The position numbers and the translations under genes were made by a program. Under the pieces are notes generated by a model. That model saw nothing but the letters and a program-made list of their open reading frames with translations. It did not search any database and had not been told where the DNA came from. From positions 186,001 through 250,000 of the forward strand of contig RSEE01000033.1 of the NCBI GenBank assembly GCA_003971905.1: DNA of 64,000 bases. The letters are read 5' to 3'. Position 1 is the stretch's first letter. Each line of letters opens with the position of its first letter. The stretch comes from Moniliella sp. 'wahieum'. Taxonomy: Eukaryota. This document shows, piece after piece, positions 8,851 through 12,349 of this stretch.

Positions 8851-11800
8851 TCAAATCCATAACCGGCGATTCGGACGGCCGATGAGCCTCGAAATGGTCT
8901 CTGCTGCCAGAAGCGCACGGCCACGGACTTCTCGGCTTGCATGCCGCTGGAGCGAGCGCAAAAGCTGCTCGGCCCGCTCCGACTTCACAGGCATGTGCCA
9001 CCGAATGTGTTGTACCATTTCCACCGCGAAGGCCGTGCACCAGGGACGTATCCTTGCATTCTTCCACCAAATCCAGCACCTCGGTGGGCTCTTCCTTATA
9101 GGACGGAAGCCGTCTCTGGAACTCACGCGCCGCTTCCCATGCAAAAATGGCACCCATTCCCTGCGCCGCTGGGGGGCGAGAACCGACAACAAGCTAGGTG
9201 ACTCGAACGTTTGCTCCATCGGTACCACGACGGTCGAGGGTGCAAGCTTGTCCACATCCACCATACCCAACAGCACTTTGACTTTGAGCGATTCCAGGGC
9301 TTCGGAGTCGTGATTGAGAAGAACCTGGACGCACGGGCGAAGAGCCTCGCCCGTGACCTGCTGCTGCAGGTGGCAAAAGATAGCGTTTACCTTCCGCTCC
9401 GGTAGCGAGGGGTCTTCCTGGGAATCGGTTGCTGAGAGAAGAGCCCGCATCGCCCCCACCCACATTTCGGTATCTTTCACCCGCTTTAGTCCCTTCAGCG
9501 CAAACGTCCAATCGCGCGAACTGGAAGAGATAAGCCGGTCAAAAAGGAGGGGCATAACTTGCGGGCTGCAAGGAATCCACCCCTTTCCCAACGTCTCAAG
9601 TGCCCTTTGCCTAACACCCTCGCTTGGTACGTCGACCAACTGGATCAGGAGCGATGCGTAGCGTTCCCTCTGACTGGGCGAGATGAGGAATGCGTTGGGT
9701 GACGCGAGAGGGTAGCGCGGGCCAGTCAATCCTTGCAATTTAGCCCGAAGAGGATTATCGAGCGGAGACCGTTGGTACTCTTCCCACCATTTGCGTTCCT
9801 CGGGGGCGACTCGCGCTACTGCTTCCACCATTCTCCACGCACTCTCATGAGGCAACAACAGAAGCGCACACTCCATGGTGGCGCCCTGCACATCATGATG
9901 GAGGGTGAAGAGACGAGAGAGAAGCTCGGTGGCCGCTTGGCCCTGGGGTAGGAACGAGGCCAACAGTCGCACAACCACTTTCTGACTTGTCACCTTGCCC
10001 TTGCCCTTCACATCCAAGATCTCGAGCAACATCTTGGGCCATACACTGAGACGCGCCTTGCGTACCGCTGGTCCCAACGCATACATCGCCACCCGTGCCC
10101 GATCCCCCCCCGCAAATGAAAGCAGACGTGCCAGTTGAGCAGGATACCGGCCCCACAACGAAAGGAGTTTTTCCTGCTTGCGGATCTCGGCCGGACCGTC
10201 CCCTCAGAGAGGGGCAAAGAGCATACCCACTCCCCTGCACCGGGCAGGTACCGTACCGCAGCCCGCAATTGCCTCCAAGCTTGGCTGGAGCGGCCGCCAC
10301 GGATGGCCTTTCCAAGATGGGCCAGGTACGTTTCCGCCAGCTGGGTGGGGAGACCACGCATACCCCAGCAGTCAGGGGAAGGACCCAACCGGATGTGTCC
10401 CCGGATGGCAGGAAACGTCCTTCGGATGGCGGCGACTTGAGTATGTCGAGAAACAAGGGGGGATGACGAGCGAGCACGTCGGCTACTGTAGACAAGCAAG
10501 CGGCTGAGCGGTCGAGATGGAACAGATCCAAAGCGCGTTCTTCCTTAGTCCGCTTGGGTGCGAGGTAGGCGGGTCAGTTTCTTTGCCCTCTCGCTTGGTC
10601 CATCTTGGATCAGCGCCTTGACCCGGATCAAAAGGGAAGGCACATTTTCCACCCGCTCTTTCAGCCACAAGGCCATTGCCATCACCCCCTGGTCATCCAC
10701 CTCACCACCAGCAGCGTAGGCCTCCCACAGGATCTGTTCGTCCCCCGCCCTGAGGGGACATGATGATGGGAGGGAGCATCCCTTACCCTCTTCGTTGACT
10801 AGGCGGAGGATCCGCCCAGCAAACGAAGCCAACTCTGGACGAGCAGAAAACATCTTGATGGTCCAGGCGGGGAGGTGAGAGCCAGTAAAGTAGGCTATTC
10901 TTTGGTACTCAGGGCATTCCGGATCATCGTTTCCATGTGGCGTAAGCTTTGCTCCGTCCACAAGGCAGGTGAGATGGAGGTGGCGGCTTCGAGTGCGGCC
11001 TTGCGTACGGCAGGATGCTCGTTCCGCACTGTTTGCGCCACTGCTCCAGCACCCGGGCCAGCTCGGCCGGGTCAGCATTCAACTTGGCGCTGCGTACCAG
11101 CTGTGTCACCGCGTCCTTGCGCACCGAGGTATTACTGTCGTGCAGGGTTGCCTGTACCGCGCTCGAAAACTCGGGGTTCGGGGGAGGCAGGAACGCTAGC
11201 AGCTTCAAACGCTCGGCAGTAGCCGCACTGGTAAAAGTGGCATCCAGAGCGGCAAGTTGAGCTTGCGCGCGCTCTATCTGGTCGTTGCGCGCCAAGAGCT
11301 CGATAGCATCGACACCCAGTCTTGGTTCGTTAAGCACGCCCGCTTCGGCCAGCACCCCAGCCTTCGCCTTGGGAGGAAAGAACCGCAGCAACTCGAGCAG
11401 ATTCTCCTCTTGTTGAAGAGAGGTAACGAACATAGGAGCGCAGTGTCTCTGTCCCAGCCGATGCACGCATCAGTTTCATCAGCCAAGATCGCGAGGGCAT
11501 GGTGTTGTGACGCTCGCGGCGCGCTTCCCTCTGCGAACTCCTATGCAAGACGCTAGGAATGAAGCCGGAACGAATGCTGTCGATCAACTGGGGCGTGGGC
11601 GGGAGGTGCTTGACCACTTGTTTCAATCCCTTTGGTAGCGTGCCCAGCGCACTTCCTTGAACCATCGACCATACCTCGGGAGCAGCTGCGGCGCCCATGA
11701 CATTCAACGCGGCCGCTACGGCGTGCACGTTAACTTCCCACCAGGTGGGTGCGACACTTGCCTCTTTGGCTTGGAGAAGGTCGGCCTTTAGGGTGGCCAG

Positions 11801-12349
11801 GACGAGGTGGGGATGAGCACGGGCAAGCGCGTGCCAGCGGAAGGTGAGGGTCAAAACTGGGATCAAGTCGGGCAGACGAGCGGCGACAAAGTCGGCGCGG
11901 CAATGGGGTAAGATCAAACCGCTGATCCGCTCGCCCCAGAGAGAGACAAGGGAAGGGTACACCTGTTCTGCCAACTCGGGGCGACCGTGGAGGCCGTGGC
12001 GCAGAAGAAGGGTGAGGCGCTCGTAAGATAAGTCTTGGGCCAGCGCCTGGACTATCGCTTCGTCCGCCGCGGCCCCGATGGGGCGGAGAGCGCGGAGAGC
12101 AGACTGCTGGATGCGCACGTCCTCGTCAACCAAGTGGGAGAGGATGAAGGGTTCTTGCTTGGTCGCCGCAGCACCGACGATGGCCAACAGGCGCTCATAC
12201 TCGGAGCCAGCGTCGAGATCAGCCAGGGCGGCAGCCTGCTGGGCGAGGGGCAGGTCACGGAGGTGCTGGATGAGCAGGGCGGTGCACTGCCCAAAGGGCA
12301 TGGGGGTGGAGAGGAGGGTGGAGAAGAGCAGCGGGGTGGTGCTGGACAT
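8851..12349 (-). CDS. Large (~1150 aa) apparently intronless alpha-helical HEAT/ARM-like protein of unknown function, resembling an actinobacterial hypothetical family
   Basis: Chain of Leu/Ala-rich ORF pieces (11330..12784 from MSSTTPLLFS at 12349; 10924..11466; 10545..11078; 9893..10531; 8851..10158) linked by frameshifts. HEAT-like motifs LVDEDVRIQQSALRAL, LHDSNTSVRKDAVTQL, DVPSEGVRQRALETL. No splice signals were needed. Confidence 0.65.

What the first reader, a model, noticed from the sequence alone, without database searches (positions are those of the whole stretch)
8851..12349. Intronless ~1150-aa HEAT-like protein resembling an uncharacterised actinobacterial family: candidate bacteria-to-fungus transfer
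Seen: a long helical ORF chain with no introns, set between housekeeping genes and flanked by lower-GC spacers. Its motifs include LADLDAGSEYERLLAIVGAAA..LVDEDVRIQQSALRA, ILPHCRADFVAARLPDL..WHALARAHPHLVL..TWW and GDRARVAMYA..KVTSQKVVVRLL..HHDVQ. From memory, these occur in the same order in large hypothetical Streptomyces/actinomycete proteins (YERRLA..LADPDP; LLPxC..VARLLP..WxxLARRHP; GDRARVAxYA..KVTSRKEAxRL..HPDV). Inference: a functionally unknown scaffold family shared between actinobacteria and a patchy set of fungi, possibly by horizontal transfer. This is the best candidate here for an undescribed system.
Basis: partly seen in the sequence, partly recalled or inferred. Interest (0 to 1): 0.75.

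Follow-up and report, generated by a model that had tools for sequence, protein, structure and literature searches.

The report
Streptomyces-derived HEAT-repeat gene in a fungus
A smut-related fungus carries a large helical-repeat gene of unknown function that came from Streptomyces-like bacteria and is otherwise known only from a few yeast genera, and its broken reading frame is most likely a sequencing artefact.

Summary
Minus strand 12349-8851 encodes a ~1160-aa all-helical protein that matches, end to end and without introns, an uncharacterised ~1100-aa HEAT-repeat family (profile E 1.2e-140). It is not one ORF. At least 6, probably 8, single-base frame changes break it. Essential genes in the same window (SLU7, Scc2/Mis4) are broken the same way, so assembly indels are the likeliest cause.

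The family is actinomycete: 33 of 46 profile hits are named Streptomyces, Kitasatospora, Nonomuraea, Nocardia or Nocardiopsis, and 42 of 151 sampled Streptomyces genomes carry it. The only named fungal members are Trichosporonales. In three trees the fungal sequences form one clade next to one shallow Streptomyces subgroup (AU p 0.0014).

The host is Ustilaginomycotina, near Tilletiaria. Its copy nevertheless nests among the Trichosporonales copies (AU p 0.0064). GC and GC3 match the host, not Streptomyces.

The structure is a generic HEAT solenoid. No operon partner or family model exists, so function stays inferred: a stand-alone binding scaffold.

The parts
11441..12349 (-). Piece 1 of the HEAT-like gene (frame 1), starting at the ATG at 12349.
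   Evidence: Profile 13-302, E 6.8e-41. tblastn of Streptomyces P0005 residues 1-242 and other homologues lands here.
11041..11439 (-). Piece 2 (frame 2). The frame change lies near 11440.
   Evidence: Profile 277-412, E 1.6e-10. The junction alignment is collinear with homologues.
10901..11038 (-). Piece 3 (frame 1), carrying the NE..P.VR HEAT motif. The frame change lies near 11040.
   Evidence: Profile 411-455, E 9e-9, abutting piece 2 at profile 411/412 with no room for an intron. Junction alignment.
10575..10898 (-). Piece 4 (frame 0). The frame change lies near 10900.
   Evidence: Profile 474-576, E 5.1e-6. Junction alignment.
10364..10573 (-). Piece 5 (frame 1), ending in the conserved P..GRFL loop motif. 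The frame change lies near 10574.
   Evidence: Profile 580-648, E 8.2e-13. Junction alignment.
10206..10361 (-). Piece 6 (frame 0). The frame changes lie near 10363 and 10205.
   Evidence: On its own this is only a weak profile hit (659-683, E 3.6). It is placed by its alignment to homologues and by the single-domain match of the read-through.
9192..10203 (-). Piece 7 (frame 2), holding the G.DRARVA.YA, KVTS.K and H.DV motifs.
   Evidence: Profile 716-1109, E 3.5e-49 for 10149-8911. The AF2 model of 8854-10203 has pLDDT 85-98 over residues 1-310.
9045..9191 (-). Probable piece 8, better read in frame 1. This implies two further frame changes, near 9191 and 9045.
   Evidence: Swapping frame 2 for frame 1 here raises the profile score from 458.6 to 473.9 bits. 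The frame-2 reading of this stretch has pLDDT 42-75.
8851..9044 (-). Piece 9 (frame 2), the C-terminal HEAT repeat, and the stop codon at 8851-8853.
   Evidence: The profile match runs to position 1109 of about 1116. ORF end.
8240..8850 (.). 3' intergenic spacer, GC 0.494.
12350..13400 (.). 5' intergenic spacer or promoter side, GC 0.535.
5810..7644 (-). Host gene SLU7 (splicing factor), itself frame-shifted at about 7159. It was used as a control for assembly quality and to place the host organism.
   Evidence: Pfam Slu7, E 6.5e-88. Homologue P0104 residues 23-176 map to 7644-7159 in one frame and residues 176-688 map to 7159-5810 in another. Tree.

Best explanation
This is a real, chromosomally integrated fungal gene for a ~1160-aa all-alpha HEAT-type solenoid. 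It belongs to an uncharacterised, accessory, stand-alone gene family of Streptomyces and related actinomycetes.

The family entered basidiomycete fungi once, from a Streptomyces-like donor. It has since taken on host base composition and evolved quickly. It is now found in Trichosporonales yeasts and in this Ustilaginomycotina host. The host's copy nests among the Trichosporonales copies, which points to a later fungus-to-fungus spread.

The 6-8 frame changes in the window are most likely indel errors of a low-accuracy assembly, not decay of the gene.

How it works is inferred, not shown. It is probably a rigid, non-enzymatic solenoid that acts alone by binding a ligand found in both bacteria and fungi. 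Its conserved Arg/Lys-rich motifs and mostly basic pI favour an acidic ligand, either a nucleic acid or an acidic protein. I put this last step at about 35-40%, and the identity and origin claims at 85-95%.
For: Membership:
- The read-through matches the 28-sequence family profile in one domain, 13-1109, E 1.2e-140.
- It keeps 61 of 83 columns that are at least 85% conserved, as many as other fungal-clade members (P0030 61, P0003 63, P0029 66).
- The window's own C-terminal 450 aa folds as a solenoid, pLDDT 84.9, pTM 0.80. The Trichosporon-cluster member folds at pLDDT 92.7, pTM 0.87, with about 63 helices.

Bacterial home:
- 33 of 46 profile hits are named actinomycetes, 1 is fungal and 12 are unnamed.
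- 429 of 600 pattern stretches in species-representative genomes encode relatives. The best 80 are 73 Streptomyces, 5 Kitasatospora and 2 Catenulispora.
- The family is in 42 of 151 sampled genomes of the genus and 5 of 301 of the phylum.

Transfer:
- The 9 fungal-clade rows form one clade (SH-aLRT 100) that is sister to Streptomyces P0052/61/62/64 (SH-aLRT 100). This holds under LG+G4 with 74 rows and under LG+C20 PMSF with 34 rows.
- After Dayhoff-6 recoding, all bacterial rows still group together against the fungal rows, with support 100/100. The remaining bacteria separate from the fungal rows plus P0052/61/62/64 with support 99.7/86.
- The AU test rejects a tree in which the shallow Streptomyces group excludes the fungi (p 0.0014).

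Integration:
- The gene lies between host SLU7/glutaredoxin and further host genes.
- Gene GC is 0.602 and GC3 0.679, against host SLU7 at 0.60 and 0.70, and Streptomyces orthologues at 0.78-0.79 and 0.94.

Host: SLU7 places the organism inside Ustilaginomycotina (SH-aLRT 100), sister to Tilletiaria (95).

Nesting: the window groups with Trichosporon P0034, P0003 and P0030 (99; 100/99). The AU test rejects the other 8 fungal rows as a clade without it (p 0.0064).

Artefact rather than decay:
- No in-frame stop is needed in the correct frames.
- All six junctions are collinear with homologues.
- Essential SLU7 is shifted at about 7159 with no gap.
- Scc2/Mis4 is spread over several frames, and an SDR is shifted.

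Stand-alone binder:
- No enzyme domain or family model was found.
- No conserved same-strand neighbour was found in 80 loci.
- pI exceeds 7.4 in 13 of 14 members computed.
Against: - No reads and no RNA evidence could be obtained, so the frame changes are not shown to be errors and expression is unknown.
- The frame-change density here (6-8 in 3.5 kb) is higher than in SLU7 (1 in 1.8 kb).
- The window has the longest branch in its clade (1.59 and 2.12). It is only about 27% identical to anything, so its exact placement is exposed to long-branch effects.
- Fungal rows share a composition unlike the bacterial rows. Recoding reduces this problem but does not abolish it.
- Both AU groups were defined after seeing the tree.
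- The careful tree search did not finish.
- The trees used the 6-break read-through, which still holds about 49 out-of-frame residues.
- Six fungal-clade sequences (P0001, P0002, P0003, P0008, P0010, P0030) are unnamed. They are called fungal only from tree position, BLAST and composition.
- Nothing tested bears directly on function. The fold matches are generic (TM about 0.25; Z at most 11.8).
Confidence: 0.7

Rival explanations
1. It is a decaying pseudogene: a relic of the transfer that this lineage no longer uses, with genuine frameshift mutations.
For: There are 6-8 frame changes in 3.5 kb, denser than the single one seen in SLU7. The window has the longest terminal branch of the fungal clade. 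It is at the low end of the fungal range for conserved columns kept, 61 of 83.
Against: No stop codon interrupts any correct frame, whereas a relic with 6-8 indels should also carry nonsense changes. Essential genes in the window (SLU7, Scc2/Mis4) are broken the same way, as are an SDR and a FAD oxidase. No ORF longer than 535 aa exists in 64 kb. Its retention of conserved columns equals that of intact fungal-clade members P0030 and P0003. Its C-terminal part folds confidently outside the out-of-frame stretch.
Confidence: 0.2
2. There were two or more independent transfers from closely related Streptomyces donors, one into Trichosporonales and one into this Ustilaginomycotina lineage. The single fungal clade would then be an artefact of shared fungal composition and long branches.
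For: The hosts belong to different subphyla. All fungal rows fail the composition test and have long branches. The window's identity to the best bacterial row (27.6%, P0062) is no lower than to the best fungal row (26.8%, P0003).
Against: Fungal monophyly is 100 under LG+G4 and under the C20 mixture model. After Dayhoff-6 recoding, which merges K/R, A/S and D/E/N/Q, all bacteria still group together against the fungal rows at 100/100. Bit scores favour fungal rows (230 and 216 against 164). The window's grouping with Trichosporon, P0003 and P0030 is 99-100 in all three analyses, and its exclusion is rejected (p 0.0064).
Confidence: 0.15
3. It is bacterial contamination or a chimeric contig, and the gene is not in the fungal genome.
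For: The nearest well-annotated relatives are bacterial, and the assembly is of poor quality.
Against: Host genes lie on both sides within the same contiguous 64 kb. GC is 0.60 and GC3 0.68, equal to the host and far from 0.78 and 0.94 in Streptomyces. Amino-acid composition is fungal-like (K 4.0% against 0.4-1.1%). It is only about 27% identical to any bacterial protein. Homologues sit on contigs of 0.4-3.8 Mb in three other fungal genera.
Confidence: 0.02
4. It is an ancient vertically inherited family, or a transfer from fungi to bacteria.
For: An unrooted tree cannot give direction by itself. The fungi-versus-bacteria split is a single branch.
Against: Named bacterial members span at least seven actinomycete genera with hundreds of species. 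Fungal members are few and attach next to one shallow Streptomyces subgroup. A root on the fungal stem would make Streptomyces paraphyletic to Nocardia, Nonomuraea and Nocardiopsis. No Ustilaginomycotina or other fungal name appears among the 42 and 46 hits apart from Trichosporonales.
Confidence: 0.03

Closest known systems
Uncharacterised actinomycete 'HEAT repeat domain-containing / hypothetical protein' family of about 1100-1200 aa (for example Streptomyces WP_385169494.1, Kitasatospora WP_380237858.1; Atlas cluster of 4945 members)
   Same: Full-length collinear profile match. Same motif order. Same length and same all-alpha solenoid fold.
   Different: The window's copy is only about 27% identical. 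It has fungal base and amino-acid composition, sits in a eukaryotic chromosome, and is frame-broken in the assembly.
Trichosporonales homologues: Trichosporon asahii A1Q1_02548 / A1Q2_06563, Apiotrichum porosum EHS24_003409, Cutaneotrichosporon cavernicola CcaverHIS019_0103410
   Same: They are the nearest relatives by tree and bit score. They too are fungal copies of the bacterial family, annotated only as hypothetical or ARM-repeat proteins.
   Different: Their hosts are in a different subphylum (Agaricomycotina against Ustilaginomycotina). Identity to the window is 26-27%.
CAND1, importin-beta/Kap123, PP2A A subunit, proteasome Rpn2 (eukaryotic HEAT/PC solenoids)
   Same: Same general architecture of stacked helical hairpins and similar size. 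They are the top fold matches: CAND1 E 2e-8 and 8amz_N Z 11.8.
   Different: TM-scores are only 0.12-0.28, rmsd is 20-45 A and sequence identity is 9-17%. The tool itself says Z below about 13 is uninformative for helical repeats. Partners such as cullins do not exist in Streptomyces. This is a resemblance of fold class, not membership.
Documented bacterium-to-fungus gene transfers (for example the enterobactin operon in Wickerhamiella/Starmerella yeasts, PMC11043216; AS3MT, PMC5398495; for both I saw only the search listing and the start of the abstract)
   Same: Inter-domain acquisition by a fungus, followed by integration and amelioration.
   Different: Those cargos are enzymes or pathways with a clear selectable activity. 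This cargo is a 1100-aa non-enzymatic repeat protein of unknown function. It also shows signs of secondary spread between distant basidiomycete lineages.

Membership tests
Uncharacterised actinomycete ~1100-aa HEAT-repeat family (no Pfam/NCBIfam accession) | End-to-end collinear match to a profile of full-length members | tested here: met
   Single domain, profile 13-1109, E 1.2e-140. The pieces hit in order.
Uncharacterised actinomycete ~1100-aa HEAT-repeat family (no Pfam/NCBIfam accession) | Conserved motif series (YE..LA; LLP.C..VAR.LP; W..LARRHP; NEQDPVR; PP.GRFL; G.DRARVA.YA; KVTSRKEA; HRDVR) in the same order | tested here: met
   The motifs, or conservative variants of them, are present in the window. 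The window keeps 61 of 83 columns that are at least 85% conserved.
Uncharacterised actinomycete ~1100-aa HEAT-repeat family (no Pfam/NCBIfam accession) | All-alpha solenoid fold over the whole length | tested here: met
   P0034: pLDDT 92.7, about 63 helices. Window residues from 8854-10203: pLDDT 84.9, 25 helices. The N-terminal 700 aa of the window itself were not folded.
Pfam HEAT_2 (PF13646) | Score at or above the gathering threshold (27.7 bits) | tested here: not met
   The window's C-terminal piece scores 22.3 bits, E 1.6e-4. Of the 7 family members scanned, only P0081 passes, at 59 bits. The repeats are HEAT-like in structure but too divergent for the model.
CAND1 / karyopherin-beta families | Specific structural superposition over most of the chain | tested here: inconclusive
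   Foldseek E 2e-8 but TM 0.24-0.28 and rmsd above 40 A. VIA Z is at most 11.8, in the range the tool calls uninformative for repeats.
PADLOC OloA (Olokun defence system) | Members of the family match the OloA model | tested here: not met
   1 of 28 members matches (P0034, E 2.4e-7).
Horizontally transferred gene, bacterium to fungus | Recipient sequences nested within the donor group in a supported phylogeny | tested here: met
   The fungal clade is sister to one shallow Streptomyces subgroup (100/100). The alternative is rejected, AU p 0.0014. The root is inferred from taxon distribution, not tested.
Horizontally transferred gene, bacterium to fungus | Physical linkage to host genes and host-like composition (not contamination) | tested here: met
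   The gene is flanked by SLU7, glutaredoxin and further eukaryotic genes. GC and GC3 equal the host's.
Horizontally transferred gene, bacterium to fungus | Absence from close relatives of the recipient | tested here: inconclusive
   No Ustilaginomycotina name appears among the hits that carry names. No fungal genome collection could be searched directly, and 6 clade members are unnamed.

The most novel reading that the evidence does not exclude
The solenoid is an autonomous protective binder, a self-resistance or sequestration factor against a Streptomyces-made genotoxin or antibiotic. Soil and skin basidiomycete yeasts captured it from the producers and then passed it between distant fungal lineages because it works without any partner.

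Leads only:
- In Streptomyces it is an accessory gene (42 of 151 genomes).
- It lies in neighbourhoods that often hold gene classes typical of self-resistance: glyoxalase/bleomycin-resistance-type in 36 of 80 loci, ABC-F-type ATPase in 40 of 80, and a second ABC-type ATPase (Pfam ABC_tran plus a weak zinc-finger-like match; 'UvrA-like' is my reading, not a family hit) in 20 of 80.
- Most members are basic, with invariant Arg/Lys motifs.
Probability: 0.12. Interest if true: 0.8.

Novelty: new member of a known kind. Interest (0 to 1): 0.5.

Why it matters
Bacterium-to-fungus transfers that persist are nearly always enzymes or transporters. A 1100-aa repeat scaffold with no catalytic domain is different. 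It was kept in at least four fungal lineages and probably moved between two basidiomycete subphyla. That implies it does something useful by itself in both a bacterium and a eukaryote.

This gives a handle on a large actinomycete family that has no family model and for which three literature searches found no paper (Atlas cluster of 4945 members). Whatever it binds must exist in both hosts.

The practical lesson is that this assembly carries frequent indels. Gene models from it need polishing before any claim of pseudogenes or introns.

Tried and rejected
- Intron at 11466-11409 (a 58-nt gtgcat...aag stretch noticed): rejected. The stretch encodes a segment that aligns with a conserved family motif, and all six junctions are collinear.
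- Word-indexed search with the N-terminal 339 aa against longer proteins: no hit. This is a limit of the index, because the same region matches the family by tblastn and by profile.
- Own genome: not held.
- Sequencing runs for 8851-12349: none was listed and no RNA holder was listed.
- Earlier findings of this scan: none by place or by sequence.
- Pfam, NCBIfam and PADLOC on 7 members: only weak HEAT_2, one PDS5 hit and one OloA hit. OloA matches 1 of 28 members.
- Fold searches: Foldseek against the PDB and VIA-wide gave only generic solenoids.
- Operon partner: crude GC3-based gene calls in 80 loci recovered the family gene itself in 69 of 80. The commonest neighbour is a convergent FA_desaturase_2 gene (45 of 80). 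The rest are assorted chromosomal genes, and nothing is shared with the Kitasatospora or Catenulispora loci.
- Plasmid carriage: 4 of 72,556 PLSDB records matched, all replicons above 1 Mb, and none covered at least 80% of the query.
- Flanking repeats and tRNAs: two short chance-level direct repeats, no inverted repeats, no tRNA.
- Literature: three searches found no paper on this family or this transfer. They covered Trichosporonales + HGT + bacteria; six accession or locus tags; and Trichosporon/HGT/Streptomyces/HEAT repeat. Subscription journals are not covered.
- The first search for related loci with A1 failed for lack of conserved stretches, so A2 was used instead.
- The careful tree search did not finish in the time allowed.
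- Complex prediction was not used, because there is no candidate partner.
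Full report
WHAT IS IN THE SEQUENCE

The feature lies on the minus strand, from the ATG at 12349 to the stop at 8851-8853. It is not one ORF. The ORF list gives 11330-12784 (484 aa), 10924-11466, 10545-11078, 9893-10531 and 8851-10158 (435 aa) in alternating frames, and the three-frame translation shows the chain. GC is 0.602 in the gene, 0.494 in the 3' spacer (8240-8850) and 0.535 in the 5' spacer (12350-13400). 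Pfam finds only a sub-threshold HEAT_2 match, 22.3 bits against a cut-off of 27.7.

THE FAMILY IS REAL

I ran a full HMMER search of 1.84 billion representative proteins with the C-terminal 435 aa. It gave 42 hits at E <= 1e-3 (2 at <= 1e-10), mostly proteins of 1050-1230 aa matched at their residues ~700-900.

Name look-ups covered 29 distinct hits:
- Three are fungal: Apiotrichum porosum, Cutaneotrichosporon cavernicola and Trichosporon asahii, all on contigs of 0.4-3.8 Mb.
- Seven are actinomycetes: Streptomyces x4, Kitasatospora, Actinoplanes and Paractinoplanes.

tblastn of eight full-length hits against the window placed their N-terminal parts at 12349-11603 and their C-terminal parts at 10188-8899, collinearly.

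A profile of 28 full-length members hits six window pieces in strict order across three frames. The read-through with X at six breaks matches in one domain, profile 13-1109, E 1.2e-140.

FRAME CHANGES ARE NOT INTRONS

At each junction the profile coordinates abut. For example, profile 412 lies at 11038 and profile 411 at 11041. Alignments to ten homologues show no missing or extra block. A 58-nt GT...AG candidate that I noticed at 11466-11409 encodes a segment aligning with a conserved motif, so I rejected it.

The AF2 model of the window's last 450 aa is confident overall (pLDDT 84.9, pTM 0.80) but drops to 42-75 over residues ~320-410. Reading 9191-9045 in another frame raises the profile score from 458.6 to 473.9 bits. 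There are therefore probably 8 frame changes, not 6. No correct frame contains a stop.

ASSEMBLY ARTEFACT OR PSEUDOGENE

Essential genes in the same window are broken in the same way.
- SLU7: homologue P0104 residues 23-176 map to 7644-7159 in one frame and residues 176-688 map to 7159-5810 in another, with no gap (DNA).
- The cohesin loader Scc2/Mis4: 42556-43350 matches Mis4 residues 827-923, and 43611-44540, in a different frame, matches 1160-1388. Its Nipped-B_C domain is split between 43611-44540 and 44401-45150.
- The region 38.4-45.6 kb is tiled by 23 plus-strand stop-free segments of at least 100 aa, none longer than 310 aa. That all of them belong to Scc2 is my inference.
- An SDR at 27117-27669 shifts frame between profile positions 104 and 136, with 94 nt for 31 positions. 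A FAD oxidase at 50297-51744 is split.
- No ORF in 64 kb exceeds 535 aa.

The window keeps 61 of 83 highly conserved columns, equal to intact fungal-clade members. I therefore favour indel errors (about 0.75) over decay (about 0.2). No reads could be obtained to settle it.

WHERE THE FAMILY LIVES

- The profile search of 5.8 billion clusters gave 46 hits at E <= 1e-5. Thirty-three are named actinomycetes (Streptomyces 25, Kitasatospora 4, Nocardiopsis 2, Nonomuraea 1, Nocardia 1), one is Apiotrichum and twelve are unnamed.
The best 80 loci are 73 Streptomyces, 5 Kitasatospora and 2 Catenulispora.
- An even sample found the family in 5 of 301 genomes of the phylum and in 42 of 151 of the genus of G001. 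One of the 42 is the unpublished G426, so the tally is 41 of 150 without it. The gene is therefore accessory.
- The Atlas places P0061 beside a cluster of 4945 'HEAT repeat domain-containing' actinomycete proteins.
- No Pfam, NCBIfam or PADLOC model covers the family. OloA matches 1 of 28 members.

PHYLOGENY

The first tree had 74 rows: the window read-through plus every fetched member of at least 950 aa, leaving out shorter hits and the same-cluster duplicates P0043-P0047. It used LG+G4 with a quick search. Nine rows form one clade with SH-aLRT 100: Apiotrichum, Cutaneotrichosporon, Trichosporon, the window and five unnamed. This clade is sister to four Streptomyces-type rows (P0052/61/62/64), support 100, inside a larger Streptomyces/Kitasatospora group.

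A 34-row subset that I chose to represent the clades gave the same topology under LG+C20+F+G4 (PMSF, quick search; the careful search did not finish).

The fungal and bacterial rows differ strongly in composition. Lysine is 2.9-5.9% in the fungal rows against 0.4-1.1% in the bacterial rows. I therefore recoded the alignment to six Dayhoff classes. After recoding:
- The fungi-versus-bacteria split has support 100/100.
- The split of the remaining bacteria from fungi + P0052/61/62/64 has support 99.7/86.
- The window + Trichosporon + P0003 + P0030 group has support 100/99.

AU tests reject two alternatives:
- The seven shallow Streptomyces rows as a clade without the fungi: delta lnL 58.9, p 0.0014.
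- The other eight fungal rows as a clade without the window: delta lnL 35.7, p 0.0064.

Both groups were named after seeing the tree. The direction of transfer (bacterium to fungus) rests on distribution: many actinomycete genera against a few fungi that attach to a shallow Streptomyces subgroup. It does not rest on a tested root.

HOST AND INTEGRATION

The best named hits of the window's SLU7 are Violaceomyces, Tilletiaria, Pseudozyma flocculosa, Thecaphora and Tilletia. In a 31-row tree the host falls inside Ustilaginomycotina (support 100), sister to Tilletiaria (95). Its nearest relative is an unnamed protein 76% identical. It is well apart from Tremellomycetes, including the Trichosporonales genus Vanrija.

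The gene's GC3 is 0.679, against host SLU7 at 0.70 and 0.94 in Streptomyces orthologues. The gene is thus old and ameliorated, not contamination. It is only 26-27% identical to its nearest fungal relatives and 27.6% to the best bacterial one, though bit scores favour the fungal rows (230 and 216 against 164).

A host in one subphylum with a gene nested among copies from another suggests fungus-to-fungus spread. Independent acquisitions joined by tree artefacts remain possible (about 0.15).

STRUCTURE AND FUNCTION

AF2 of the Trichosporon-cluster representative, with 68 aligned members, gives pLDDT 92.7 and pTM 0.87. The model has about 63 helices and one short non-helical conserved segment near residues 602-628.
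- Foldseek finds CAND1, mTOR, Kap123 and PA200 at E ~1e-8 to 1e-6, but with TM 0.12-0.28.
- VIA-wide finds Rpn2-like, alphaRep and PP2A-A chains at Z <= 11.8, within the range the tool calls uninformative for repeats.

In 80 bacterial loci the gene has no conserved same-strand partner. The commonest neighbour is a convergent acyl-ACP-desaturase-type gene (45 of 80). Other neighbours are ABC-F-type ATPases, a glyoxalase/bleomycin-resistance-type protein, LacI, endonuclease V, SsgA, LigD Prim-Pol and GH64. Kitasatospora and Catenulispora loci share none of them.

Thirteen of 14 members computed have pI above 7.4, and the invariant positions are mostly Arg, Lys and Trp.

My inference, with none of it shown: the protein is a rigid, non-enzymatic solenoid that works alone by binding a ligand common to actinomycetes and fungi, probably an acidic one.

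VERDICT

This is a new fungal member of an undescribed branch of the HEAT-repeat class, acquired from Streptomyces-like bacteria. It is of moderate interest for its unusual cargo type and its apparent secondary spread. It is limited by unknown function, by a poor assembly and by unnamed relatives.

Noticed in passing
window 5810-7644 (-), frame change at about 7159: The essential splicing factor SLU7 is frame-shifted with no gap in either the protein or the DNA coordinates. This points to indel errors in the assembly.
   Followed up: yes
window about 38384-45591 (+): A cohesin-loader gene (Scc2/Mis4/Nipped-B) appears fragmented into many short overlapping frames. Pieces at 42556-43350, 43611-44540 and 44401-45150 lie in different frames yet match successive parts of Mis4 or of the Nipped-B_C domain.
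   Followed up: partly
window 27117-27669 (-); 20501-21783 (+); 50297-51744 (-): A short-chain dehydrogenase, a mitochondrial carrier and a FAD-linked oxidase each have their Pfam domains split over two frames. No ORF in the whole 64 kb exceeds 535 aa.
   Followed up: partly
whole window (host identity): By SLU7 the host is an Ustilaginomycotina fungus sister to Tilletiaria anomala. Its closest relative in the databases is an unnamed protein (P0104, 76% identical over aligned columns). No closely related named genome was seen.
   Followed up: yes
L009 and L055 (same Streptomyces strain); G308, G336, G413, G432: Some Streptomyces genomes hold two matches. In one strain these are two full-length paralogues about 51% and 42% identical to the query. 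In G336, G413 and G432 the gene is split into adjacent pieces. In G308 the match contains one TGA, so broken copies also occur in bacteria.
   Followed up: no
Streptomyces genomes with the match on contig C1: In 17 of 19 such genomes the gene lies within about 2.1 Mb of the nearer end, using total genome size as a stand-in for contig length. This is a rough figure. It suggests a location in the variable chromosome arms.
   Followed up: no
window 13369-13412 and 13891-13934: There are two purine-rich 44-nt stretches 73% alike, 522 nt apart, upstream of the gene's 5' spacer. They are probably low-complexity intergenic sequence.
   Followed up: no
L003:3997-5223 and 14 other loci: A GH64 beta-1,3-glucanase, an enzyme class that attacks fungal walls, lies about 4.3 kb upstream of the HEAT gene in 15 of 80 Streptomyces loci. 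This is probably plain synteny.
   Followed up: no
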